Origin: a virus
Lineage: Duplodnaviria > Caudoviricetes
IMG/VR virus record: IMGVR_UViG_3300011226_000001
Coordinates: 204,225 to 268,224 of that record
Direction: 5' to 3' (one strand)
DNA: 64,000 nucleotides
Every line of letters starts with the position of its first letter. Position 1 is the first letter of the stretch. The translations under genes were made by a program, and so were the position numbers. Below are positions 35,160 to 47,342 of this stretch, piece by piece. The notes under the pieces were generated by a model that was not told where the DNA came from, did not search any database, and saw nothing but the letters and a program-made list of their open reading frames with translations.

Positions 35160-37496
35160 ATGGCCACTGAATCTATCTACGTTAACGCTCTGCGTCTAAC
35201 GCCTCAGGGAGAACAGGCCGTTGCGAACGCGAATGCTGGTGGACTTGCTGTAACACCAGTGGCATTCAAAGCAGGTGACTTTGTAGGCTCTAACCCATCT
35301 GTGGTTCCAGAGCAGTTACTTGGCAACGAGCTTGCGTCGGGCGCATTGTCATATGTTCAGGTTCTTACCGAGAACAGTGCCCGCTTCGTCTTTGACATTA
35401 AAGTTAAATACGTTGAAGGTGAAACGCTTAAACGAGTAGGTGAGATACTGATCATGCTCTCAGATAACCGACCTTTCGGTCACGTTGTCTTGGAAGAGCC
35501 TATCATTGCTGTACCGAACTCTATTAGTCGCGTGAGTCTTCTCGTACACATCCAGCAGGACATTCAAAAGATTCTTGCTGTTAAAATGGCAGACTACACT
35601 TCTATTCCGAGTGTGGCAACGCTGCAAAACCTTCCGAGCTTGAACGACAACGTGTTCAACGCCGTGTCAGTTCTTGATATGCACGTTAACTCTGACGGCA
35701 CACGCTCTCCGGGTACTGCATATCGCTACGGCCAAGGTTCTTATTACTGGGCTTTCAGTGAGCATGACCGTATTTTCAGCGGACAGATTACTGCTGCCGG
35801 TTTCATCAACGCGAACACCTTTAAGATTGCGTCAATCACCAGTCTTAAAGAGAACGAAGTTGTGCTGCTGCAAACAATATCAGGTACTGGTGCCGGTGCT
35901 TGTCGTCACTTCAAATACACGAAAGGCCAGCTCGTCAACATGGACAGCGCAATTCCTTTCGTTAGTGCTCAGACTTCGATTGCTGTGTGGCGCCGTATCA
36001 CTAACCCAACAACTCCTACTGCTGGCATTCCGTGGCCGCTAAATAACGATGTACCAGAAGCATGGGCATTGTACAGAGGCAAAGACGCGCAGCCTTATTG
36101 GGGACCTGTTGCTGGTAGCACTCGTCAGACGACTGGTACGTTGTTCGTTCCTCCAGGCAAGATGCTGTTTAGTTCTGTTGTGACCACAGCTACTCCTGAT
36201 AAGTTACGTTACACGCTGTCCGAGATTCTCGATAGCTCAACTGACCTGCTGCTAGGTACGTCTGGTGTGCTTCAACCTCGCACTGCGTATAGCGTTGTAG
36301 ACGACCAGCTTTTGCTTTCGTCTTACCCTGAACAGCGTATGCAGCTTGATATGCGTCAGTTCCGTATTGAACCGTCGCAAGGTCACGTTGTGTTGTTCGA
36401 AACATACGAAGGTGTTGGTGACGGCCAGACTGCTCTGTTTAAACTCGGTAGCAAACCGATTGATAGCGTGGACATGATCTTCTGCGTTGTCGGATCGACG
36501 TGGCAGCCTACCACCGTGTATAAACTCACGAACGGTAACAGCGTCACGCTGACAGAAGCAATCCCGTCAGGTCAGAAATACACTTTCTATGTAGCTCGCT
36601 ATGAAGAACGCGCCAACTGGTCTACTCGTATTCGTGTTGCTCAGTATCGCCTGCCTTATGATGCTGATACATTTGTACTGCCAACTACACCTCTGAATAA
36701 GTCGCACTGCGTTGTGGCTATGAGCGGTCTGACAGTACACACGCAAGAGTTCACGGTCGCTGGTAATGTGCTGAAAACGCTGTCGCCTATTCCTGCTGAT
36801 ACCCTCGTTGAGATCACAATCTTCGAGAACGTAATGGCGGTTGGTTCGAAAGACAGTTCAGTTGATGGTGTCATCATTGATGCTATCCCTACACCGACCG
36901 GTTACATGTTCAAGCGTCAAGGTCTGCCTCCTATCGACGTGCCTATCGCTGCTCCTGAAATCATTCAGGGCGAAGGTATTCTGATTAAAGGTACGTGGCC
37001 TGAGATTACGATTAGCAACACTCAGGCTCTTGCCGAAGAAGCTGATCCAAAGAACATGTACAACATCCAGCAGGTAGTCGAAGATTCCGAAGAACTGACC
37101 ATCGTTCAACGTATCGACTTCACGAAGGGTGTTATGCTTACGTGTATCGCTGACTTCCAGTGTCAACTGGGCCCGGGCTTTGCAGCCACCAGCGGTAAAG
37201 AGCATATCGAATACGTTCTGTCGTTCAAAGTCCCAGGCACAGCCGAAGCTGAATACGGTCGTGGTCTTAAGGGTACTGGCAGCGCTGGCTTTAACGTTGT
37301 TACTTCTGATGCAAGTCTGACGGAAGTGATCGCGTATTCAAACGTTAGCCTGACGCAGATGTACACAGTGCTCATTGAGAACCAACCTCAAGGCTTCATT
37401 GATATCGTTGCTAAGGTGCGTATCACTGATTCGCAGATCACAAGCTACGGTTCGAAGCTGTCTGGTAACTTGTGCATTAAGGTTGAACCGAAATGA
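35160..37496 (+). CDS. tail fibre attachment/baseplate protein
   Basis: N-terminus [16 protein letters not shown] resembles tail-collar fibre N-termini; three beta repeats of GDGxxxxF...V...Q...Y...L...P type. Confidence 0.55.
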
Positions 37497-38932
37497 CAAC
37501 ACAGTTAAAACTTTCGCAAATCGAAACAACCGCCAATGATGAAGGTAAGTCGCTGGTGGGTGTTGGTGGTAGCGCACAGTTCGAGCAATCGGACACTGCT
37601 GCTCTTACACAACTCGCAAGCGTAAGATTTAACAGCAAGACAGGTGTGTTGGTGTTCATCAAGAAGAACGGGGATGTGATTAACGTTCCCGGACTTCCTA
37701 CTGTAGCTATGTTCGGTGAAGGTAAACCGGGGCGTCGAGGCGCTCCCGGTGCCGCCGGACGAGATGGACGAGATGGTCGTGACGGTGAAACAGGACGTCC
37801 TGGCTGTCAAGGCAAAGTTGGCAACAGAGGCAAGACTGGACCTGTAGGTGACCCCGGACGTGACGGCGAAGACGGTCCTCAGGGTGATACTGGTCGCATG
37901 GGTCCTGATGGCCCTACAGGCCCAGACGGTCCTGAGGGTCCTCCAGGCATACGTGGTCCTCGTGGCAACACGGGTCCAAGCTGTATTGCTGGTGCAACAG
38001 GTCCTACAGGCCCAGCGCCTATCACTACTGCTGTGCTGTCAAGTACGCAGCCTACGGATGGTAAAGTGTTTGTGTGGTTATACCCGACGAACAACGTTAC
38101 CCCTGCACCGCCTCTGCCTACGATAACACCTCTTGCTGCGTCAGTATCAAGTCTGTACATGGTTGGTCAACGTGCAGTACAGGGTTCTGATGTGTTTACT
38201 TCGCTTGCGTATCTGCCTGTTAACGCGCGTGGTGGTGTTGGTCCTTATAAGTATCAGTGGACTATCACAACTACAGAGGGTGTAACGCTCAGTGCGACAA
38301 CATCCTCAACCTGTGTCGTTAACTTCTATCTGCGTCTCGGACTTGGTGCTGATCGAGTAATCAAAGGCACTATCCGTTGCGTAGTAACTGACATGGGGCA
38401 AACATCACGTCCAACCGTCACAGTGAGTTCTGCTCTGACTGTTGTGGCACGTAACCCTATCAACAAAGCGTCTGGCTGTATCGTGTTCGGCTCTGAGGTT
38501 GAAACAATCACAGGACCTAAAGCTGTCGAGGACTTGCGTGTAGGCGATAGCTTGCGCAGCTTCTCTAATCAGCCTAAGAACTTCCGTCAGTGGTCTTCAC
38601 CGAGTCTGAAAGGTAATCTTGTAAACGCTACAGTCGTCGGATTAAAATACGGCGAAGAAGATCATTACTACGTTATCAACGGACAGAAGTTCACGCACGA
38701 ACACCCTGTCTTGATTTACGATGACAGCGTGTGGCGTTATGTTCCTGCGCGTGATGTGCAAGCTGGACAAACTGTTTTGGGTCGCAAAGGACCTGTTGCT
38801 GTATACGAGTTCCGACGCATAGATGCTCAAGTGAAGACAGTCGATATCGACGTTGACCCATTTGATTGCTACTTCGTTGGTGATGTGCTCGCACACAACA
38901 CGGATATTGTTGCGAAAGCGGAGAAAACGTAA
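37493..38932 (+). CDS. collagen-like fibre protein with Ig-like domain and C-terminal Hint domain
   Basis: 33 triplets (one non-Gly interruption); [10 protein letters not shown] Ig-like unit; Hint motifs CIVFGS, THEH and LAHN/T. Confidence 0.8.
38477..38899 (+). other. Hint (intein-like) domain, 141 aa
   Basis: Cys1, TxxH block B, block F Asp, terminal His-Asn followed by Thr; no endonuclease. Confidence 0.85.
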
Positions 38933-39564
38933 TGAGTCTGATTAAAGTTAAGACCGGTCTCATTCAGGCTGGTTCTTCGACTACTGCTACTGCAATTCGT
39001 GCTCAGTCTGGCGTTCTGACAATAGACCAGAACGATGCTGATGTACCGTCAGAGATAACTGCTGATTCGTCATTCGATGCGACTTCGGGTATTCTTACTC
39101 TCAAGTTCGCTAACGGTCAGTCAGTCAAAGTAGGTGGATTCCCTACTGCATCTGATATCCCTGAAGGTCGTCAAGGCAGCAGGGGTGAGACAGGCGCTGA
39201 TGGTAAAGACGGTCGTGATGGTCGTGATGGAAACCCAGGCGAACAGGGTTGTGACGGTGAGATAGGTCCTGACGGTGAGCAGGGTCTTCCTGGGCCGGAT
39301 GGTCGTGATGGTCTGCCGGGTCCTGTCGGTCCTACTGGCCCAGATGGTCGCACAGGTCCTATGGGGCCTACTGGTCCTACCGGCCCTCGTGGCGGTACAG
39401 GCCCTACAGGAGCAACTGGCGCTACTGGCCCAACTGGTCCTACTGGTGCAGCAGGTCCTGCTGGTCGTCTGTCTATCATCGTGAGTGCTACCCAGCCCGG
39501 AAATGTCGCACCCGGCACCGTGTGGGTAGACCCTACAAAAGATCAAGGCACTACCTGGCCGTAA
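38932..39564 (+). CDS. collagen-like fibre protein
   Basis: 33-34 uninterrupted GXY triplets. Confidence 0.85.
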   Translation: MSLIKVKTGLIQAGSSTTATAIRAQSGVLTIDQNDADVPSEITADSSFDATSGILTLKFANGQSVKVGGFPTASDIPEGRQGSRGETGADGKDGRDGRDGNPGEQGCDGEIGPDGEQGLPGPDGRDGLPGPVGPTGPDGRTGPMGPTGPTGPRGGTGPTGATGATGPTGPTGAAGPAGRLSIIVSATQPGNVAPGTVWVDPTKDQGTTWP

Positions 39565-39573
39565 GGAGTAATC

Positions 39574-40065
39574 ATGGTAGAGAAGGTTGATATATCGCTT
39601 ATCAAGGCCAACGCGTCTGGTCCTGTTGTAGCGACTCAGGGTGGGATTAACGTTGACACGTCAGAAGACGATAGCACACTCAATGGTGCATTCGATGCGC
39701 TTACTGGTGTGCTCGCAATCAACATCCCCAATATCGGCAAGCTGCAAATTGCAGGACTGCCAACTATTCACAGCATCGGCTATGGTCCTGCTGGTGACGT
39801 AGGCCCTTCTGGTCGTGATGGTATTGACGGTCTGATGGGTAAAGATGGTCGTCGAGGCACTGACGGTTGTCCGGGACCACGAGGCAGTGATGGTCCGCAA
39901 GGTAAGCAAGGCTATCTGGGGCTTCGTGGTCCAGCAGGTCCTACTGGCGCTACGGGTCCTACTGGTGCTCCCGGAAACCCAGGAGTCGTGGCTGTTTTCG
40001 TTCAAGATTCCGATCCGGCACTAGATCAGGAGATTCCGCCTGGAAGTATCTGGGTCCGTCCTTAA
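39574..40065 (+). CDS. collagen-like fibre protein
   Basis: 22-23 GXY triplets; AAGGAG RBS. Confidence 0.85.
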   Translation: MVEKVDISLIKANASGPVVATQGGINVDTSEDDSTLNGAFDALTGVLAINIPNIGKLQIAGLPTIHSIGYGPAGDVGPSGRDGIDGLMGKDGRRGTDGCPGPRGSDGPQGKQGYLGLRGPAGPTGATGPTGAPGNPGVVAVFVQDSDPALDQEIPPGSIWVRP

Positions 40066-40074
40066 GGAGAAAGC

Positions 40075-42093
40075 ATGTCTCGTTTTCGCGTTCGTAATGC
40101 TGCGAATAACGGTTGGCATGACTGTGTGGACACGCCTATGTTCATACGCACACATGCTGGAGACTGGACACCTTTAACTCCAGAGAAGTTCAGTGTGCGT
40201 AATCAGTGGGGTCAGCGTTGGCATCACATTGATGACTCGTTTGACCCTACATACGATGACCCGTGTTCGAATCTCGAAACGGGCGCGTGTGGTGGCGGTC
40301 CTACGTCAACAACCAAAGGCTCCGGCAACGGCATAGGGAGTGGCGGTCGTGAGAAGTACGATATCCTTACAGGCTATCCTGCAGGGTTTGACTTGCCTGA
40401 TGCTGGTCGCACTGGCTTCGGTCTTGTCAACTCTTTTGCTCCTCCTACTGGTCGATCTCTCAATCGTCCCGGCATCAAGGCCATCGAATCATACGATCCT
40501 ACTGGTGTTGCTTCTCGTGCAGGGCTAGGCACCTACGCTAACCCCAACGTACCGTATGCGTCTGTTCACGGACGCGGTGCTGTTGTCACTGAAACGTACT
40601 ATGCAATGCCAGCTATCGAAGGTTATGTCGAGCTGATGATTGCCTCGTATGCGCCTGCTGGTGCAAGCGTCGATGTGTATCACATGGGTGTGCGTGTTGC
40701 TTCAACGTGCGGTAGGCTGGCGGGTCGCTCTCGTATCAAATTCCAGTTTGACCCTGATGCTGCTGATATGCGTATCATGGTGCGTGTGCGTACAACGCAG
40801 GGTTATAGCTGGAGCTTGGAAGTATATCCTCCTCGTCTTGCTGCTCCGTCTGACCGTGGTGGGTTGGCACTCGATAGTCAAGCTGCATACGACGTTATCA
40901 ACTTCCCTGACGTCATTCATCCTGATTATATAGGTAGCCCAATCTTCCCAGCACCGTGTCACGCTACAGTCTGGCCTATCACTGAGCGTATTCAGAATGC
41001 TAACGCGTTTGAATACTATCACTTCATCGGCTGGATTGCAGGTTGGATGTATCTCGATTACACGTCATGGGATACGTTCGACTTCATTGAGGTCTATCAG
41101 GGTGGCCAGCGTATCGCTACCACACTTGATGCGAAGACCGGCGAGGGTTATCTGTATTTCTACTTTGACCCGAAAGGCGTTGCGTGTGATATCATGGTGC
41201 GCGTCGTCAGTAAAGACTTTGGTAATGCTGCATCGCTTGCGAGTTGCTTCTACAGTCTCTACTGCCCAGGCGAACGTGGTGCGCGTGAATACATGCACCC
41301 TTGCCAGAGTTATAGCGTGTACTCTGCTGGCCATCCAACCACAGAAGATAATTTTGCATTAGGAACTCAGACGGACATTCGCGCCGGGCTTGTTGTTTGT
41401 GTAGCGAACTCGTTTGATACCAAGTTCGAAGTGTTTGACCAGAACATGACTCTGCTTGATACGTCAATCGTTGCCGCGGGTCGTACAGGCACACTCGAAT
41501 TTTGGAAATACCCTGAGCATGTGCTTCGCGCTAACATCACAGTTCGCGTGACAGCGCCTATCGGATGTGATTGGTCGTACTTTGTGTACTGTCCGATTCA
41601 GCCTCCTAAGATTAACGTGAGTGACTTCACTGTTCCTTATCGTTGTGTGACAATCGAAGGTGGCAACGCGCAGCCTCCAGAAGCTGATCCATTCCCGTGG
41701 TACTGCTACGAGATTGAGCATACTGGTGGCCGTGGCTTTGGTAACTTCTGGTCGCAAGTACGAGTGCAGGACGGTGACTACGGTGTTCTCTGGGGTGGCT
41801 CGAAGGGTTGGTTCAAGTTCAACAACTTCTTCACACGTCGCATTACTCAGGTTACAGTCAACATCGCGTACACAGGCAAACAGGGTTCGTTCCATAGTGG
41901 TATCACATGGAGTGAGCGCTCTAACCCTGGCTTCACATTCGTTCCGAGAAATAACCGCAACATCCAGACATTCAACGTCCCTGTAAACATTGCAGCTGGC
42001 GAAGAAATCTGGTTCTACGTTACCTCAAGTTGGGATAGGGGTGACGGTGTTAACATGGATTATATCTCGATCTCGAACGTGGTCTTTGCATAA
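40075..42093 (+). CDS. putative fibre tip/adhesin with three tandem beta-sandwich repeats
   Basis: Three repeats (VDVYHMG...IMVRVR; IEVYQGG...IMVRVV; FEVFDQN...ITVRVT, ending Y-x-P); Trp-containing N-terminal repeats. Confidence 0.55.
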   Translation: MSRFRVRNAANNGWHDCVDTPMFIRTHAGDWTPLTPEKFSVRNQWGQRWHHIDDSFDPTYDDPCSNLETGACGGGPTSTTKGSGNGIGSGGREKYDILTGYPAGFDLPDAGRTGFGLVNSFAPPTGRSLNRPGIKAIESYDPTGVASRAGLGTYANPNVPYASVHGRGAVVTETYYAMPAIEGYVELMIASYAPAGASVDVYHMGVRVASTCGRLAGRSRIKFQFDPDAADMRIMVRVRTTQGYSWSLEVYPPRLAAPSDRGGLALDSQAAYDVINFPDVIHPDYIGSPIFPAPCHATVWPITERIQNANAFEYYHFIGWIAGWMYLDYTSWDTFDFIEVYQGGQRIATTLDAKTGEGYLYFYFDPKGVACDIMVRVVSKDFGNAASLASCFYSLYCPGERGAREYMHPCQSYSVYSAGHPTTEDNFALGTQTDIRAGLVVCVANSFDTKFEVFDQNMTLLDTSIVAAGRTGTLEFWKYPEHVLRANITVRVTAPIGCDWSYFVYCPIQPPKINVSDFTVPYRCVTIEGGNAQPPEADPFPWYCYEIEHTGGRGFGNFWSQVRVQDGDYGVLWGGSKGWFKFNNFFTRRITQVTVNIAYTGKQGSFHSGITWSERSNPGFTFVPRNNRNIQTFNVPVNIAAGEEIWFYVTSSWDRGDGVNMDYISISNVVFA

Positions 42094-42094
42094 C

Positions 42095-42117
42095 AAGAAG
42101 GGGCTTCGGCCCCTCTT
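42095..42117 (+). terminator. C(UUCG)G hairpin, terminator or processing stem
   Basis: aagaaggggc-ttcg-gcccctctt. Confidence 0.6.
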
Positions 42118-42136
42118 ATCGATCTAAGGACATAAC

Positions 42137-45016
42137 ATGCTGCAACAAAGTTGCTTATATGCGCGAGGCATTACTCCCGTATTTAGCGGTAGCCCAGGTG
42201 ATGGCACCCAAGCAAGCGTAGATGCTATGGCCGTTGATGGTACACGCTTCACTTCGTTTGTAGTTGATGGTCATGCTCAAGCGTTCGTGTGCGGTTTCGG
42301 TGCTGTCTATATGAACGGTCGCTTTGTTCGTGAAGGTAGCCCTATGGTTGACGGCAGCTACGGCTGGCTGGGGAATTACCGCAACAAAAACATTAACAAC
42401 ATGGGTGTGCTGCGTCATCTGCTTACGCAGCGCGGCTATAACTCAAACGTTACTCTCGGTAGCACCATGCTTGTCATCTCTGACCTTGCGCCAGTGAACG
42501 ATGATACTGCAATGGAATCGTGGGGCCAGCTCGTTAGCTACATGCAACGTATGCCTCTCGACATGCTCGCCCACAGTTGGCAAGAGATTAACGCAGGAGC
42601 ATATGGGTATGATGGAACGTACAAGTATTTCAAACAGTTCAGCTCGGTAATGCTGCTGTTGTCTGCTGGCAACCAAAGTATGCCTACAGCAATGCTTACT
42701 GCTTTACGTGAAGCGCATCGTAACGGCGTTAACCTGATTGTGTTGCAGAAAGGTGCGTATGAAGGTAACGTGAACTTCAACGCAATCTTCAACCCGTTAG
42801 GTATTCGCAGCAACGGTCAAGCGTATGTTGTCGCTACACCAAACGCGAAGACAAAGAGCGTGAACACGTTCGGTAATCATATTGGCTGGACGAACGTACC
42901 TCAGTTGCATAACCAGCAGACGTATCACCTTTCCGCTGCGTATCAGTTCACAGGAACTACGCAAGCAGGCCCAGGCTCTATCGGAGGTCAGCCGGGAACG
43001 TGGAAACAGTTTTACTGTGGACAGGTTGATATCCCCGACGACATTATCATTGACCCGCCTGTCATATACAAAGACAAGTGCTGCGTTGAACCCGGCTCTG
43101 CCTATCAGGTAGACTTCGACGTTACCACCTACCCGCAGAAGCCTGATGATTGGCAAGCGCGTATGGCGGCAGGTGATGTATCTGTCTATTGGTCGAACGA
43201 GAACGCACAGTCGCTTGCAGCACGTAGCAAAATCTTCTCGCACGTTGTAGGCTATCAGCGCTATCTCGACACAGGCGATACAGGATATACGATCTTTGAC
43301 GGTGTTCGTTACACTGACCTGCGTGGCTGGAACGTTTATAAGATTCGTAAGTCTGATCTTTCGCTGGTGGAACGTAAACGCTTCGACATTCACGCATCTG
43401 CCGAGGGTACTAACCCAGGTGTTGCGAATGCTGCTGCGTGTGCTGCTTACCTGAACTCGATTGGCTCTGACCATTACGTCTACGTTGTGTCGTATGATAC
43501 CGCAGACGTTAACCGTTTGCAGGGTGGTCTGCCTCAAGCGATGTATCGCATCGGTGCTTCTCGTCGTGTGTATGCTGGTTCGCAGTACGTCTACCGTGCT
43601 GCTTACTCGCTGTTTGGCGAACCCGGTATCGGTGAAGGTAACGCGTGGAATGAAATGTATCGTGGCGCTAAGTCGTCTGATACTGACAGCTACTTCTCTG
43701 TTGGTTATGACTTCGATACGAACGGTTTCCCATACGTTACAGGCACAGACCGTGAAGGTAACATGAGCATGGCGCTCAATGGTCTGTTCGACAACACCAA
43801 GAGCAGTCACCTGCGTTATTACAAAGTGCTGGGTAGTCAAGACGGTGCTTCAACAATGGGTATGCAGCATAACGTTACGATCAGAGACAATCGTTTCAAG
43901 AAGCTGCCTATGTATGAGTCAAAGACATTCGTTGTGTCCGTGACTAACCCATGCTTCCCTGTGCCTAAGGTTCAATCGCATGACTGGGTACACGTTGTTA
44001 ACCGTGCTGGTTCGAACTACGTGCGATATCCGTTCAAGGACTTGTGCGAATATCTGATTACAACGTCAGATGGTGCAGGCCAGAACGAAATGTGTACCTC
44101 TCACCTGATGATGAACTGGGATATGTTCGGCTCTATCGGGTCAGGCACTATCTACAACTCTGCGGGTGCATCGCATAAGATTTTCTGCGGTACGTCTAAC
44201 GGGAACATCAATGACCCTAACTCGTTGTACATCAATACGACAGAAGAGGGGAAAGTGTGGCACATCTATGAGCGTAAGTATCAGCTCATTACAGAAGAAG
44301 CGACGCGTGATTCAAACGATTGGCAGGTGGTTTGGAAGTGGAACGGTCCTGGTACTCAAGGACACAACATCCAGATTGCTGCGGGTTATGAATACATCGT
44401 GTTTGCTTACGACCGTTACGGTGAGATTGAACTTGCTGAACGTCACTTCTTCGTGCCACCAGCAGAGTATCTGCCTAAGTGGGGATCGAACTACTACTGC
44501 CGTGATTTCTCGAACTCAACCACGTTCACTGTTGACCGCTCGCTGCGCTGCAATGCGTACTGTGAGAAGTCAAGCAACCACGGCGGTGAGAACGGCATTA
44601 TGATGATCATTCGTCGTCCTCTATTCTTGACTACAGGCGCTTCTGACCGTACTGGTTGGGAATGTATCTATAACGGTAACAGCACGACTGTTCCTCGCGG
44701 CAACAACTACAACATTCCGTGTGTGAAAGATTATCAGTACATGGTTCTGTGTACAGTTGGTGACGGTGCTTATTCATCCCACCACTTCAACGCGTGGAAA
44801 GGCGCATTCGATATGGTATGGGAAGGATTGTTCGAAGCTGACTCCGGAGGCCGTGCCTCATGGACTGCTGGGCTTGCGACGTTGATGCAAAGTGGCAACT
44901 CAGGAGGACGCACGATGGACTGCTTTGTTGATGACTATCGCGCTGCACCTATCGGTGTATTCCAAGTGTGGCGCAGACCTATCCTGTGTTGGGAACCTGA
45001 CGAGATTGAGGAATAA
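42137..45016 (+). CDS. large virion protein with ILEI/PANDER (GG-type lectin-like) domain
   Basis: RGWNVYKI...RFDIH...YLNSIG...VYVVSYD...AMYRIGA...YRAAYSLFG at ~43310-43660. Confidence 0.65.
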   Translation: MLQQSCLYARGITPVFSGSPGDGTQASVDAMAVDGTRFTSFVVDGHAQAFVCGFGAVYMNGRFVREGSPMVDGSYGWLGNYRNKNINNMGVLRHLLTQRGYNSNVTLGSTMLVISDLAPVNDDTAMESWGQLVSYMQRMPLDMLAHSWQEINAGAYGYDGTYKYFKQFSSVMLLLSAGNQSMPTAMLTALREAHRNGVNLIVLQKGAYEGNVNFNAIFNPLGIRSNGQAYVVATPNAKTKSVNTFGNHIGWTNVPQLHNQQTYHLSAAYQFTGTTQAGPGSIGGQPGTWKQFYCGQVDIPDDIIIDPPVIYKDKCCVEPGSAYQVDFDVTTYPQKPDDWQARMAAGDVSVYWSNENAQSLAARSKIFSHVVGYQRYLDTGDTGYTIFDGVRYTDLRGWNVYKIRKSDLSLVERKRFDIHASAEGTNPGVANAAACAAYLNSIGSDHYVYVVSYDTADVNRLQGGLPQAMYRIGASRRVYAGSQYVYRAAYSLFGEPGIGEGNAWNEMYRGAKSSDTDSYFSVGYDFDTNGFPYVTGTDREGNMSMALNGLFDNTKSSHLRYYKVLGSQDGASTMGMQHNVTIRDNRFKKLPMYESKTFVVSVTNPCFPVPKVQSHDWVHVVNRAGSNYVRYPFKDLCEYLITTSDGAGQNEMCTSHLMMNWDMFGSIGSGTIYNSAGASHKIFCGTSNGNINDPNSLYINTTEEGKVWHIYERKYQLITEEATRDSNDWQVVWKWNGPGTQGHNIQIAAGYEYIVFAYDRYGEIELAERHFFVPPAEYLPKWGSNYYCRDFSNSTTFTVDRSLRCNAYCEKSSNHGGENGIMMIIRRPLFLTTGASDRTGWECIYNGNSTTVPRGNNYNIPCVKDYQYMVLCTVGDGAYSSHHFNAWKGAFDMVWEGLFEADSGGRASWTAGLATLMQSGNSGGRTMDCFVDDYRAAPIGVFQVWRRPILCWEPDEIEE

Positions 45017-45019
45017 GCG

Positions 45020-45223
45020 ATGCCAGCATATGCACGTTTAGCATTCAAAGACCCTTCAAGAGACAGATGGGTAGCTAATTTAGCATACGGTGGAACGAAG
45101 GTTCGGTTTCAAGATTCAGACGGAAGTGTGCGTTGGGTGCGTATGACAATCAACAACACGAAAGTTAAAAACCCTGAAGCCGGACAGTCGGGACAACCTG
45201 ATTGGACAACACTGACTGGTTAG
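45020..45223 (+). CDS. small fibre-associated protein with three basic/Trp beta repeats
   Basis: GAGG RBS; resembles the N-terminus of the 40075 ORF. Confidence 0.55.
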   Translation: MPAYARLAFKDPSRDRWVANLAYGGTKVRFQDSDGSVRWVRMTINNTKVKNPEAGQSGQPDWTTLTG

Positions 45224-45234
45224 GAGTTTAGCCC

Positions 45235-46056
45235 ATGTCTCTTACGAAGATTAGTCCTGCTCTTATCGACGGTGGCTCTGACCCCATCGGTAAAGTGTTA
45301 GGTAAGAAGACGGCGTCCGCTGTTGCATTCATAGATCCAGCAGAGGCTGCAAAGATTCCCGGCTCTCAGGGTGCGGAGTTCGATACAACTACCGGCACGT
45401 TAACTATCATCTGGCCTGATGGAAGTCAGTCTAGCGTTCTGGGTCTGCCTACTGCCGACCAGCTCAAATCAGGACGTGAAGGTAAGCAGGGTAAAGACGG
45501 CTTGCGCGGTCTTCCTGGTGCTGACGGACGAGATGGTCGTGATGGTGAAGACGGTTGCCCGGGCCCTCGTGGCCCTCGTGGCCGTAACGGTCCTACTGGC
45601 AACACTGGACCTATCGGTGCTACAGGCAACACGGGTGCTGTTGGCCCTACCGGTGCTACAGGACCTACCGGTAGCCCTGGTCGTGATGCTGCTATCGACG
45701 AGTATCGTGTATCGCAAGCTCTGAACCCTGTGACCGGTGCTGTTATCCCGAATGCGTGGATTGGTAGTAACCGTGACATGAACACTGGCTTTACCCATAA
45801 CATGGGTAGAGTCGTGAACACGTCAACTACTGACACTATCCACGTCGTATTCAACACGGCATTCATCAACCGTTGTATCAGCATTCAGATTACGTTTGTG
45901 AACGCTGCACTCAACCAAGCGAAGACCTACCAGCTCTACAATCTGGACGGTACAAGCGCGATGAATGAGAACGCCCTGTTAGGCGGTTTCACCATCAAGT
46001 CTACTGGCACCAACACTGCTGGTTGGGACTTCTGGTATACTGCGGTAGGTGATTAA
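45235..46056 (+). CDS. collagen-like fibre protein with C-terminal fibre tip domain
   Basis: 24 GXY triplets; C-terminus VVFNTAFINRC...FWYTAVGD resembles trimeric fibre tip domains. Confidence 0.8.
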   Translation: MSLTKISPALIDGGSDPIGKVLGKKTASAVAFIDPAEAAKIPGSQGAEFDTTTGTLTIIWPDGSQSSVLGLPTADQLKSGREGKQGKDGLRGLPGADGRDGRDGEDGCPGPRGPRGRNGPTGNTGPIGATGNTGAVGPTGATGPTGSPGRDAAIDEYRVSQALNPVTGAVIPNAWIGSNRDMNTGFTHNMGRVVNTSTTDTIHVVFNTAFINRCISIQITFVNAALNQAKTYQLYNLDGTSAMNENALLGGFTIKSTGTNTAGWDFWYTAVGD

Positions 46057-46057
46057 C

Positions 46058-46534
46058 ATGCCGATAATTAAAATCAATAGCGCGAACAACAGCATCGTTG
46101 GTCGTGTACGTGAAAAGACGGGTGATGATTGCATCGAAGTTAGTGACGAGCTATTTGGCAGAATCATTAGCGACCCGTCTGCTTTTCAGTTCTATCCTGA
46201 GACCGGTCAGATTGACTTGGCTGAGGGTTATGATACAGCGCCTCCTGAGTTCGACCCTGTTGCGCTGGCGCAGTTCGTTGCTGAAATCAACCAGAACATC
46301 TACGTGCCTGAATTGGATGTAGACGTAAGTATCTCTGGTGATCTCGGCAACCATCTGCTGTTCGCTTTGGCACTCGCACAATACTCTCCTCAGACTATCG
46401 TGTGCAATACTAAAGGGAAAATCAGCACACTCGTTGTCGATAAGGCTGCTGCCAAACTTATTGCTAAGGCCTTCTCCGATAAAAGTTCCATTGTTCTTCA
46501 ATCGTTAGGAGTCTCGGATGAGCCAGTTGACTAA
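46058..46534 (+). CDS. putative fibre assembly chaperone
   Basis: Directly follows the fibre tip gene; DCIEVSDELF pattern resembles tail fibre assembly proteins. Confidence 0.45.
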   Translation: MPIIKINSANNSIVGRVREKTGDDCIEVSDELFGRIISDPSAFQFYPETGQIDLAEGYDTAPPEFDPVALAQFVAEINQNIYVPELDVDVSISGDLGNHLLFALALAQYSPQTIVCNTKGKISTLVVDKAAAKLIAKAFSDKSSIVLQSLGVSDEPVD

Positions 46535-47342
46535 CTACGTGGACACGTTGATTAGTCTTGCACAACAGCAAGGTCTGTCAGCGTCGAATGATATCGCGTA
46601 CAAGGTAGGAGCGGATGTTACAATCATTCTTTCCTTCTCAGAACCTGTCACTCACGTATTCCCGCTGAACGGTCTCTGGATCATCGCAGACGGAGCGAAC
46701 GCTGGCTACAAGAAAGTCATGCGTCGTAAGTCTAAGACTGCTACTGCACCGTACAAAAATACGTGGCAAGAGGAAACTGATTACAATACGGTGATGACCA
46801 CTGTTCAAGTCTGGGACGAAGCTGATTTGCCAGCACCTCAGATTATCAGCGCAAGTGGTGGACGTCTTACCGGTAAAGTTCTCACACGTACAGGCGTAAC
46901 AACGTTTGACAACGATGAACTGATTCCTAAGTCCTATACGGACGGCGTTCGTACGGCGATGAACAACTCGTTCTTCACCATGTTCAACAACATGAACCAG
47001 CGCGTTAACTCTAACCTTGCAGCTATTCGTACTCTCCAGTCGGATGCCCAGCTCTTAACATCCCGTGTTGCGGTGCTTGAGCAGGCGACTGATGAAGCGT
47101 CAGTGAAAGGGTTAGTGTTCGTGCAAGAGAATGCCGACACCGTATGGGCCTTGCGACATGGATTGGGCAAGGGCGCCGGCATTCCTTACGTCACTGACGA
47201 GAGAGGAGAAGTTCTATGGCCGGAAACTGTCAATCCAGCCGAAGCCGATCCAGACAACGTATTGCTGCTTACATTCTTGGAGCCTGTCTCTGGTGTAGCG
47301 CAATTAATGTACATGCCAATAGCGGAGACGAGCCAACCTTAA
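46518..47342 (+). CDS. structural protein with coiled coil and C-terminal HNLG-type domain
   Basis: AGGAG RBS; WALRHGLG...PYVTDERG domain shared with the 49871, 52328 and 52936 ORFs. Confidence 0.6.
   Translation: MSQLTNYVDTLISLAQQQGLSASNDIAYKVGADVTIILSFSEPVTHVFPLNGLWIIADGANAGYKKVMRRKSKTATAPYKNTWQEETDYNTVMTTVQVWDEADLPAPQIISASGGRLTGKVLTRTGVTTFDNDELIPKSYTDGVRTAMNNSFFTMFNNMNQRVNSNLAAIRTLQSDAQLLTSRVAVLEQATDEASVKGLVFVQENADTVWALRHGLGKGAGIPYVTDERGEVLWPETVNPAEADPDNVLLLTFLEPVSGVAQLMYMPIAETSQP

What the first reader, a model, noticed from the sequence alone, without database searches (positions are those of the whole stretch)
37493..46056. Four collagen paralogues with an invariant Cys register and pairwise-matched lengths: possible heterotrimeric, disulfide-locked phage collagen
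Seen: all four follow G[LF]PT-x6-(GXY)9-G-C, so Cys is always in triplet 10 (codons at 37805, 39250, 39868, 45556), although the triplet sequences differ. 37493 and 38932 both reach GPA at triplet 33; 39574 and 45235 have 23 and 24 triplets. All share an N-terminal K-[LVI]-x-x-x-x-I-type peptide and an F-[DN]-x-x-[TS]-G-x-L head domain. Helices are charged (GRD) proximally and Thr-rich distally. Known: characterised prokaryotic collagen-like proteins are generally homotrimers, while heterotrimers and cystine knots are animal features. Inference: two length classes of fibres assembled from mixed chains or bundled through the aligned Cys, possibly the hair-like appendages of this phage type.
Basis: partly seen in the sequence, partly recalled or inferred. 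Interest (0 to 1): 0.72.

Follow-up and report, generated by a model that had tools for sequence, protein, structure and literature searches.

The report
Register-locked collagen tail fibres, jumbo phage
A giant Erwinia-type phage encodes four related collagen-like tail-fibre chains with fixed rod lengths and one cysteine at a fixed position, and two of the chains have co-evolved as if they touch along their length, possibly in one mixed triple helix, a design described so far only for animal collagens.

Summary
The window comes from a 268-kb Alexandravirus-like "hairy" jumbo phage. It has exactly four Gly-X-Y genes, placed just after the baseplate genes. All four share an N-terminal module, G[LF]PT, a 6-residue linker, and Cys at the X position of triplet 10.

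In 11 annotated relatives, down to 30% identity, the triplet counts never change: 29+4, 34, 23 and 24. The Cys is at 10X in 126 of 141 family sequences. Extra Cys fall at triplets 20 and 30.

- **Genes 1 and 2 (long pair):** They share the same anchor-to-cap spacing of 120 residues. Their charges at collagen strand-contact positions are complementary specifically within each genome (12 lineages, 0 of 200,000 permutations), and only in register. Gene 1 repels itself. Cys20 appears or disappears in both genes together. This points to a mixed fibre, probably (gene 2)2(gene 1)1, or to two rods packed side by side.
- **Genes 3 and 4 (short pair):** There is no such signal. Gene 3 looks homotrimeric by its self-contacts, gene 4 by its head fold.

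A disulfide lock inside the helix is geometrically unlikely, because every Cys is at X. An outward cross-link is more plausible. Nothing is shown physically. This scan found the same family before on other DNA.

The parts
37493..38932 (+). Gene 1 (479 aa). N-terminal anchor module; collagen 37721-38017 (29 triplets, C-I-A, 3 triplets = 33); Cys 10X codon 37805-37807; Cys in the Gly position of triplet 30, codon 37982-37984; beta-rich middle domain; C-terminal bacterial-intein-like (Hint) domain 38477-38905, followed by 8 residues.
38932..39564 (+). Gene 2 (210 aa). Anchor module; collagen 39166-39471 (34 triplets); its only Cys at 10X (39250-39252); 30-residue C-terminal cap with the ..S.T.P...G..W[VI].P motif. 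Its start overlaps the gene 1 stop (TAATG) and has GGAG upstream.
39574..40065 (+). Gene 3 (163 aa). Anchor module; collagen 39784-39990 (23 triplets); its only Cys at 10X (39868-39870); 24-residue cap.
45235..46056 (+). Gene 4 (273 aa). Anchor module; collagen 45472-45687 (24 triplets); Cys 10X (45556-45558); C-terminal beta-sandwich head 45688-46053 resembling the tips of R-pyocin and AP22 gp53 fibres.

Best explanation
These are four paralogous collagen-stalk tail-fibre chains of a 'hairy' jumbo myovirus. They are encoded directly downstream of the baseplate genes (PAAR, gp25-like, gp6-like, 1511-aa and 779-aa proteins). Shown: all four share one conserved proximal module. It comprises an N-terminal peptide, a beta-hairpin head, G[LF]PT, a 6-residue linker, ten triplets with G-x-D G-x-D G-R-D, and then Cys. 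Inferred: this module is the virion anchor, so all four plug into equivalent sockets. Shown: rod lengths are fixed to the triplet. Computed at 0.286 nm per residue, they are about 28-29 nm for genes 1 and 2 and about 20 nm for genes 3 and 4. Inferred: the fixed lengths reflect the virion's architecture. Shown at sequence level: the strands of genes 1 and 2 have co-evolved in register. Inferred: they contact each other along the rod, most likely as one mixed triple helix of about (gene 2)2(gene 1)1. In that case only one strand continues into the middle domain and the self-cleaving Hint domain. Inferred: genes 3 and 4 form separate homotrimeric short fibres, and gene 4 carries a receptor-binding-type head. 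Inferred: the invariant Cys sits on the outside of the helix at the end of the anchor segment. It most likely makes a disulfide to a neighbouring rod or a baseplate protein once the virion is in an oxidising medium, rather than locking the three strands of its own helix.
For: Synteny and virion context. Invariant counts and Cys: 11 relatives, 29/34/23/24; 25 gene-2 orthologues, all 34 triplets, Cys 10X; family-wide: 82 of 95 with Cys exactly 38 residues after the G of G[LF]PT; 126 of 141 at 10X; 30G in 19; 20X in 5. Proximal conservation. Equal spacing of 120 residues in genes 1 and 2 in 10 of the 11 genomes listed (JA29 gene 1: 121), against 87 and 95 in genes 3 and 4. Co-evolution over triplets 11-29: gene 1 x gene 2 same-genome contact score 3.31 against 0.99 mismatched, 5 of 40,320 permutations reach it. 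With 12 lineages it is 4.12 against 0.88, 0 of 200,000; the signal fades at a shift of +/-1 triplet and is gone at +/-2. In five new lineages alone, the cognate pairing is the best of 120. It holds for axial-only and lateral-only scoring and without the two strongest lineages. Gene 1 is no more similar to the gene 2 of its own genome than to others, so gene conversion does not explain it. Gene 1 self-contacts are net repulsive (-4.67 same genome against -2.62 mismatched). Gene 2 and gene 3 self-contacts co-evolve (P 0.003 each). Controls g1xg3, g2xg3, g1xg4, g2xg4 and g3xg4 show nothing. Cys 20X is present in both gene 1 and gene 2 in PaBG, L031 and L046 and in neither gene in the other 12 lineages compared; NCTB, nested in that clade, lacks it in both. 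Gene 4 head: model pLDDT 86; best PDB matches are R-pyocin fibre tips, an adenovirus fibre head and AP22 gp53. Virion disulfide networks are documented in other phages (PMC10811340, listed).
Against: In this window alone the gene 1/gene 2 signal is modest (+3.5 cross, -4 gene 1 self, +3 gene 2 self); the case rests on the family. The charge score is a crude count of contacts. Lineages are not fully independent. The resolution of +/-1 triplet cannot separate strands within one helix from two rods packed in register. Gene 2 is strongly self-complementary and occurs without gene 1 in a distant contig (L017), so it can probably homotrimerise. Characterised prokaryotic collagens are homotrimers (PMC8968730; EPclA, PMC3368898). 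Gene 1 of the JA phages lacks Cys10, and a few family members lack any Cys, so the Cys is not indispensable. The anchor role of the proximal module and the redox state of the Cys are inferences.
Confidence: 0.45

Rival explanations
1. All four chains form separate homotrimeric fibres. The complementarity between genes 1 and 2 reflects two neighbouring rods that pack side by side in register (an acidic rod against a more basic rod). The outward-facing Cys at triplets 10 (and 20) form rungs between them.
For: All Cys are at X positions, which point outward. Cys recur at triplets 10, 20 and 30, roughly one turn of a 10/3 collagen supercoil apart (geometry from my own knowledge). The co-evolution signal tolerates a shift of +/-1 triplet. 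Gene 2 self-contacts co-evolve. Phage fibres are as a rule homotrimers (PMC3368898).
Against: Gene 1 self-contacts are net repulsive in 9 of 12 lineages, down to -14 and -12. That is hard to reconcile with a stable gene 1 homotrimer lacking hydroxyproline. The 10-triplet spacing of Cys can also be a relic of a duplicated 10-triplet unit.
Confidence: 0.25
2. Both length classes are mixed-chain fibres (1+2 and 3+4), and the aligned Cys lock the three strands of each helix by disulfides, as a cystine knot does in animal collagens.
For: Near-equal lengths in both pairs, and a third pair of 53/52 triplets in a distant contig. The Cys register is invariant.
Against: Genes 3 and 4 show no co-evolution (same-genome 0.86 against 0.81). 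Their anchor-to-cap spacing differs by 8 residues. Gene 3 co-evolves with itself. Gene 4 has a head of a type known from homotrimeric fibre tips, followed by its own conserved small gene. One Cys per chain gives an odd number per trimer. X-X pairs of the same triplet are about 7 A apart at C-alpha with side chains pointing away from each other (my own estimate from ideal geometry, not a tool result). Animal knots use two Cys per chain at the end of the helix.
Confidence: 0.07
3. The conserved Cys forms no disulfide. It is kept as a free thiol for another reason, such as packing against the baseplate socket, metal binding between rods, or a transient role in assembly. Length conservation simply reflects fibres that must span fixed distances.
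For: Assembly takes place in the reducing cytoplasm. Gene 1 of the JA phages and a few other members do without Cys10. The search for a covarying partner Cys gave only a weak lead.
Against: It is the best conserved non-Gly residue of the helix and the only Cys in genes 2 and 3. Extra Cys appear in a pattern (20X in both partners together) that fits pairing better than packing.
Confidence: 0.2

Closest known systems
Prophage collagen-like side tail fibres of E. coli O157:H7 (EPclA-D; Ghosh et al. 2012, PMC3368898)
   Same: Phage tail-fibre proteins with a true collagen triple-helical stalk between terminal domains, and a C-terminal capping/trimerisation element. No hydroxyproline, with stability coming from charged triplets.
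   Different: EPclA is an experimentally shown homotrimer with PfN, PCoil and PfC domains. None of these Pfam domains is found here. EPcl proteins are not described as having a fixed triplet count, a register-locked Cys or co-evolving paralogous chains.
Animal heterotrimeric collagens and collagen-stalk defence proteins (type I collagen alpha1(2)alpha2; C1q A/B/C; adiponectin) - from own knowledge and the review PMC8968730
   Same: Distinct paralogous chains of matched length in one helix, as proposed here for genes 1+2. A single Cys per chain leaves an odd thiol per trimer that links trimers to each other in adiponectin and C1q. In C1q the interruption of the helix lies in only some of the chains.
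   Different: No homology outside the Gly-X-Y repeat. The Cys here lies inside the helix at an X position, not in a terminal knot or N-terminal tail. There is no hydroxylation machinery in view. Chain selection domains are unidentified. Nothing is shown biochemically.
Tail-fibre proteins of the 'hairy' jumbo phages Y3, AD1, JA11/13/29, Yoloswag and PaBG, as annotated in GenBank and discussed by Day et al. 2018 (PMC6143709)
   Same: These are direct orthologues with the same four genes in the same order. Day et al. compare three of them as host-range candidates and as candidates for the 'hairs'.
   Different: That paper does not mention collagen (0 occurrences). My searches found no paper describing the Cys register, the fixed lengths or chain co-evolution.
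Bacterial intein-like (BIL) / Hedgehog-type Hint domains (PDB 2LWY)
   Same: The C-terminus of gene 1 has Cys1, T-x-x-H and His-Asn, and matches 2LWY at E 7.5e-6.
   Different: It sits at the tip of a collagen fibre chain. The +1 residue varies (T/V/M/A). JA-phage orthologues simply end where the domain would begin. It therefore looks like a self-cleaving tail rather than a splicing intein.

Membership tests
Collagen triple-helix repeat proteins (Pfam PF01391) | Uninterrupted Gly-X-Y repeats scoring above the Pfam gathering threshold | tested here: met
   54.7, 59.4, 56.2 and 54.7 bits against a cut-off of 27.2. Runs of 29, 34, 23 and 24 triplets.
Collagen triple-helix repeat proteins (Pfam PF01391) | Formation of a triple helix | not testable with these tools
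   Needs CD or EM.
EPcl-type prophage collagen side tail fibres | PfN (PF08400) N-terminal and PfC (PF06820) C-terminal domains flanking the collagen | tested here: not met
   The Pfam scan at E <= 0.1 lists neither domain in any of the four proteins.
Heterotrimeric (mixed-chain) collagen | Different chains matched in length and register | tested here: met
   Genes 1 and 2: 120 residues from the G of G[LF]PT to the cap Pro in 10 of the 11 genomes listed (JA29 gene 1: 121). Genes 3 and 4: 87 and 95.
Heterotrimeric (mixed-chain) collagen | Inter-chain contacts adapted between the different chains rather than within one chain | tested here: met
   Genes 1x2: cognate 4.12 against mismatched 0.88, 0 of 200,000 permutations, in register only. 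Gene 1 self is repulsive. Not met for genes 3x4.
Heterotrimeric (mixed-chain) collagen | Physical demonstration of mixed trimers and their stoichiometry | not testable with these tools
   Requires co-expression with native MS, or a virion structure.
Cystine-knot-locked collagen (type III / FACIT type) | Two or more Cys per chain at the end of the helix, allowing all three strands to be linked | tested here: not met
   There is one Cys per chain, inside the helix at X of triplet 10. Only gene 1 has a second Cys, at triplet 30.
Bacterial intein-like / Hint domain | Cys1, block B T-x-x-H, terminal His-Asn, and similarity to a solved BIL domain | tested here: met
   The motifs are visible. 2LWY matches at E 7.5e-6. 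Pfam PT-HINT scores 26.1 bits, just under its cut-off of 27.7.
Gp53-like tail-fibre C-terminal head (PF21882) | Pfam score above the cut-off, and the fold of AP22 gp53 | tested here: inconclusive
   20.1 bits against a cut-off of 24.9. The model has pLDDT 86. TM-scores are 0.47 to 4MTM and 0.44-0.49 to R-pyocin fibre tips.

The most novel reading that the evidence does not exclude
Genes 1 and 2 supply the strands of a natural mixed-chain collagen triple helix, about (gene 2)2(gene 1)1. This would be the first outside animals. Its outward-facing cysteines, spaced 10 triplets apart, would cross-link fixed-length rods into a defined baseplate-fibre lattice, and one strand would end in a self-cleaving Hint domain.
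Probability: 0.4. Interest if true: 0.8.

Novelty: new variant of a known kind. Interest (0 to 1): 0.64.

Why it matters
Prokaryotic and viral collagens are treated as homotrimers without covalent cross-links, with repeat numbers that drift freely (PMC8968730). This family breaks all three expectations at the sequence level.
- Repeat numbers are frozen across very distant relatives.
- One surface cysteine sits at a fixed height on the rod.
- Two paralogous chains carry compensating charges at strand-contact positions.

If the mixed helix is real, it offers a small collagen heterotrimer that can be expressed in E. coli. Its chain selection and register could be studied or re-used for biomaterials. 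It would also assign proteins and an architecture to the uncharacterised fibres of the 'hairy' jumbo phages that are being developed against fire blight and soft rot.

Tried and rejected
Homo- against hetero-trimer folding could therefore not be compared.
- **AlphaFold2 model of the N-terminal module**: low confidence (pLDDT 64), so not used for fold search. A profile search of the PDB with the module found nothing.
- **Sequence search of the PDB** with the gene 4 head: no hit.
- **Net-charge correlation** between genes 1 and 2 across genomes: not significant. Only the position-specific test gave a signal.
- **Triplet-shuffle null** for heterotrimer preference: it suggested genes 1+2 but equally 1+3, because it is driven by gene 1 self-repulsion. 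I replaced it with the same-genome against mismatched-genome test.
- **Gene 3 displaced by 9-11 triplets** along the long chains (C-terminal alignment, staggered bundle): no co-evolution.
- **Search for a partner Cys** that is lost together with gene 1 Cys10 in the JA phages: only one column fits (959-aa protein, position 653) among about 40 Cys columns. This is a weak lead at best.
- **The 10-triplet spacing of Cys as proof of function**: weakened, because triplets 5-10 and 15-20 look like a duplicated unit.
- **Splicing-intein reading of the Hint domain**: rejected, because the JA orthologues end at its start and the +1 residue varies.
- **Antisense ORFs across the collagen regions**: by-products of the GGN-CCN codon repeat.
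- **Literature**: no paper found on collagen in these phages. The Y3 paper is not held.


Full report
**What the window is.** The window is bases 204,225-268,224 of a 268,224-bp viral record with terminal repeats. The region of the finding is 88% identical in DNA to Erwinia phage pEa_SNUABM_1. It is colinear with Alexandravirus, Sasquatchvirus (Y3), Yoloswagvirus, Rivsvirus and Salmondvirus (JA phages), and with Yersinia fHe-Yen9-02, Salmonella Sen-NF and phage NCTB. These are the "hairy Myoviridae" jumbo phages. Day et al. 2018 state that the hair proteins are unknown and that the annotated tail fibres are candidates; the paper never mentions collagen (PMC6143709).

**Observation.**
- A six-frame scan finds exactly four long Gly-X-Y runs in 64 kb, and the genome has no fifth paralogue.
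- The four proteins (P0001-P0004) align over three elements: an N-terminal peptide, a head motif F-[DN]-x-x-[TS]-G-x-L, and G[LF]PT.
- Six residues after G[LF]PT the helix begins, and Cys is at X of triplet 10 in all four.
- Gene 1 has 29 triplets, then C-I-A (a Cys where Gly should be, triplet 30), then three more triplets.
- Genes 2, 3 and 4 have 34, 23 and 24 triplets.

**Context.** The genes follow the PAAR, gp25-like and gp6-like baseplate genes and two large proteins of 1511 and 779 aa. The 779-aa protein has a weak tail-collar fibre N-terminus. Genes are tightly coupled: ATGA at the 779-aa/gene 1 junction, and TAATG with GGAG upstream at the gene 1/gene 2 junction. Between gene 3 and gene 4 lie proteins of 672, 959 (weak ILEI hit) and 67 aa.

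**Conservation.**
- In 11 annotated relatives the counts 29(+4)/34/23/24 are invariant, although the X and Y residues diverge almost completely. NCTB gene 1 is 30% identical.
- Twenty-five gene 2 orthologues from the large protein collection are 208-210 aa, and all have 34 triplets and Cys 10X. Gene 4 orthologues are 271-274 aa.
- A profile of the N-terminal module found 138 proteins in 1.8 billion representatives.
- Among those with the module followed by collagen, Cys lies exactly 38 residues after the G of G[LF]PT in 82 of 95.
- Over all 141 family sequences, Cys occupies 10X in 126, the Gly position of triplet 30 in 19 (gene 1 class), and 20X in 5, and is otherwise almost absent.
- Length classes recur: 34 (56 sequences), 23 (26), 33 (22), 24 (14).
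- Cys 10X and G-x-D G-x-D G-R-D at triplets 5-7 are the most conserved helix positions.
- A distant contig (L017) has 34, 23, 53 and 52 triplets, all with Cys 10X. Another contig has the same baseplate synteny with four collagens.
- Frozen repeat numbers are unusual for microbial collagens and point to an architectural constraint.

**Homo- or heterotrimer?** I counted opposite-charge minus like-charge pairs at the positions where neighbouring collagen strands touch. These are Y of triplet n to X of triplet n+1 (axial) and Y to X of the same triplet n (lateral). I used triplets 11 onwards, where the paralogues are unrelated in sequence.
- **First look.** Gene 1 is repulsive against itself in register, gene 2 is attractive against itself, and gene 1 against gene 2 is attractive, with the peak at zero shift.
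- **The critical test.** I paired gene 1 of one genome with gene 2 of the same genome or of another genome. With 8 lineages the cognate mean is 3.31 against 0.99, and 5 of 40,320 permutations reach it.
- **More lineages.** I fetched loci from the viral contig collection, including PaBG. With 12 lineages the cognate mean is 4.12 against 0.88, and 0 of 200,000 permutations reach it. The effect weakens at a shift of +/-1 triplet and is absent at +/-2 and beyond.
- **Replication.** The five new lineages alone replicate the result; the cognate pairing is the best of 120.
- **Rank of the cognate partner.** The cognate gene 2 is the best of the 12 for gene 1 in 7 lineages, and never ranks lower than third for a given gene 1.
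- **Polarity swap.** In L029 gene 1 is the acidic chain and gene 2 the basic one. In L046 part of this polarity is reversed. The cross scores are +7.5 and +11, while the self scores are -14/-1 and -9/-2.
- **Robustness.** The result survives axial-only and lateral-only scoring and removal of those two lineages.
- **Not gene conversion.** Gene 1 is no more similar to its own gene 2 than to foreign ones.
- **Controls and self-contacts.** Gene 1 or gene 2 against gene 3, gene 1 or gene 2 against gene 4, and gene 3 against gene 4 all show nothing. Gene 2 and gene 3 do co-evolve with themselves (P 0.003 each).
- **Independent support 1.** The distance from the anchor motif to the conserved Pro of the C-terminal cap is 120 residues in both gene 1 and gene 2 in 10 of the 11 genomes listed (JA29 gene 1: 121). 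It is 87 in gene 3 and 95 in gene 4.
- **Independent support 2.** Cys 20X is present in both gene 1 and gene 2 of PaBG, L031 and L046, and in neither gene in the other 12 lineages. On a tree of the neighbouring 779-aa protein, NCTB lies inside that clade (support 100/99; sister to L046 at 89/86). That implies at least two correlated changes.

**Reading of these results.**
- The strands of genes 1 and 2 are in contact, in register, along the rod.
- No adaptation of gene 1 to itself, combined with gene 2 self-adaptation, fits a (gene 2)2(gene 1)1 helix best.
- In that helix only one strand has the Gly-to-Cys interruption at triplet 30 and the C-terminal domains.
- The alternative is two homotrimeric rods packed side by side. 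It is not excluded, because the resolution is +/-1 triplet, but it requires a stable gene 1 homotrimer despite dense like charges.
- Gene 3 looks homotrimeric by its self-contacts. For gene 4 the case rests on its head. The AlphaFold2 model (pLDDT 86) resembles R-pyocin fibre tips, an adenovirus fibre head and AP22 gp53. A conserved 161-aa gene follows it, also in a distant contig.

**The cysteine.**
- It is the only Cys of genes 2 and 3.
- All copies are at X, which faces outward.
- By ideal triple-helix geometry, X residues of the same triplet on two strands are about 7 A apart at C-alpha, with side chains diverging (my own estimate). A lock within the helix is therefore unlikely, and three Cys per trimer cannot all pair.
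- An outward disulfide to a neighbouring rod or a socket protein fits better, as with the odd Cys of adiponectin or C1q (own knowledge).
- Virion disulfide networks are known in phages (PMC10811340).
- The spacing of 10, 20 and 30 triplets equals one turn of a 10/3 supercoil. It may also be a relic of a duplicated 10-triplet unit (G-x-D G-R-D ... G-C-x), which is visible in members with Cys20.
- A search for a covarying partner Cys gave only a weak lead.

**Gene 1 tail.** Residues 329-471 are a bacterial-intein-like domain (2LWY at E 7.5e-6; PT-HINT 26.1 bits). JA-phage orthologues end exactly before it, and the +1 residue varies. It is therefore a removable, self-cleaving tail and not a splicing intein.

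**Known or new.** Collagen stalks in phage fibres are known; EPclA is a shown homotrimer (PMC3368898). Reviews state that prokaryotic collagens are homotrimers without cross-links (PMC8968730). I found no paper on this family's register, fixed lengths or chain co-evolution. This scan has met the family before on other DNA. Those notes cover another Erwinia jumbo phage and PaBG-like phages, and they gave mixed verdicts on chain mixing. My test is independent of theirs, includes a PaBG locus, and sides with mixing for genes 1+2 only.

**Verdict.** This is a new variant of a known kind. All functional statements are inferences from sequence.

Noticed in passing
window 38477-38932: The C-terminus of gene 1 is a bacterial-intein-like Hint domain (Cys1, T-x-x-H, His-Asn; PDB 2LWY at E 7.5e-6). 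Orthologues in Dickeya JA phages stop exactly where it begins, and the residue after His-Asn varies (T/V/M/A). It looks like a self-cleaving tail rather than a splicing intein.
   Followed up: partly
window 40075-42093: The 672-aa protein after gene 3 contains three internal beta-rich repeats and is Cys-rich. Six Cys are invariant and three more nearly so across 10 genomes. It has no Pfam family.
   Followed up: partly
window 42137-45016, residue 653: In the 959-aa ILEI-like protein, one Cys column is Cys in all genomes except the JA phages. Cys10 of gene 1 has the same pattern. It is one column among about 40, so it may be chance.
   Followed up: partly
window 46049-46534: A 161-aa gene follows gene 4 in every relative, and follows a 252-aa gene 4-like collagen in a distant metagenomic contig (L020). 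It is annotated 'tail fiber protein'. By position it looks like a fibre assembly chaperone.
   Followed up: no
window 46518-47342: The 274-aa product is called 'HNH endonuclease' in relatives and in PHROG 24148, but it has no Pfam hit. Its first 105 residues match tail-protein PHROGs. The nuclease name looks doubtful.
   Followed up: no
proteins P0033, P0034, P0042, P0056: The head motif of the N-terminal module (..[FY]D..TG.L.L....G....) is repeated up to 25 times in giant proteins of up to 5450 aa. In P0042 it alternates with 6-triplet collagen runs. There is a Pfam KTSC match (E 1.8e-16) and a weak one to 'collagen-flanked surface repeat'.
   Followed up: partly
L017 470-9180 (metagenomic contig): A distant relative has collagens of 34, 23, 53 and 52 triplets, all with Cys 10X, and no gene 1. 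The 53 and 52 chains share the start of their C-terminal domains.
   Followed up: partly
L031 2024-3476 and L046 1955-3491: Gene 1 of two lineages has a Gly-to-Ala interruption at the same place, triplet 16 (A-N-P and A-D-D). This is in addition to the Cys interruption at triplet 30.
   Followed up: no
window 37879-38160, 39171-39518, 45426-45884 (minus strand): Long antisense ORFs rich in Gly and Pro overlie each collagen region. They are by-products of the GGN-CCN repeat, not genes.
   Followed up: yes
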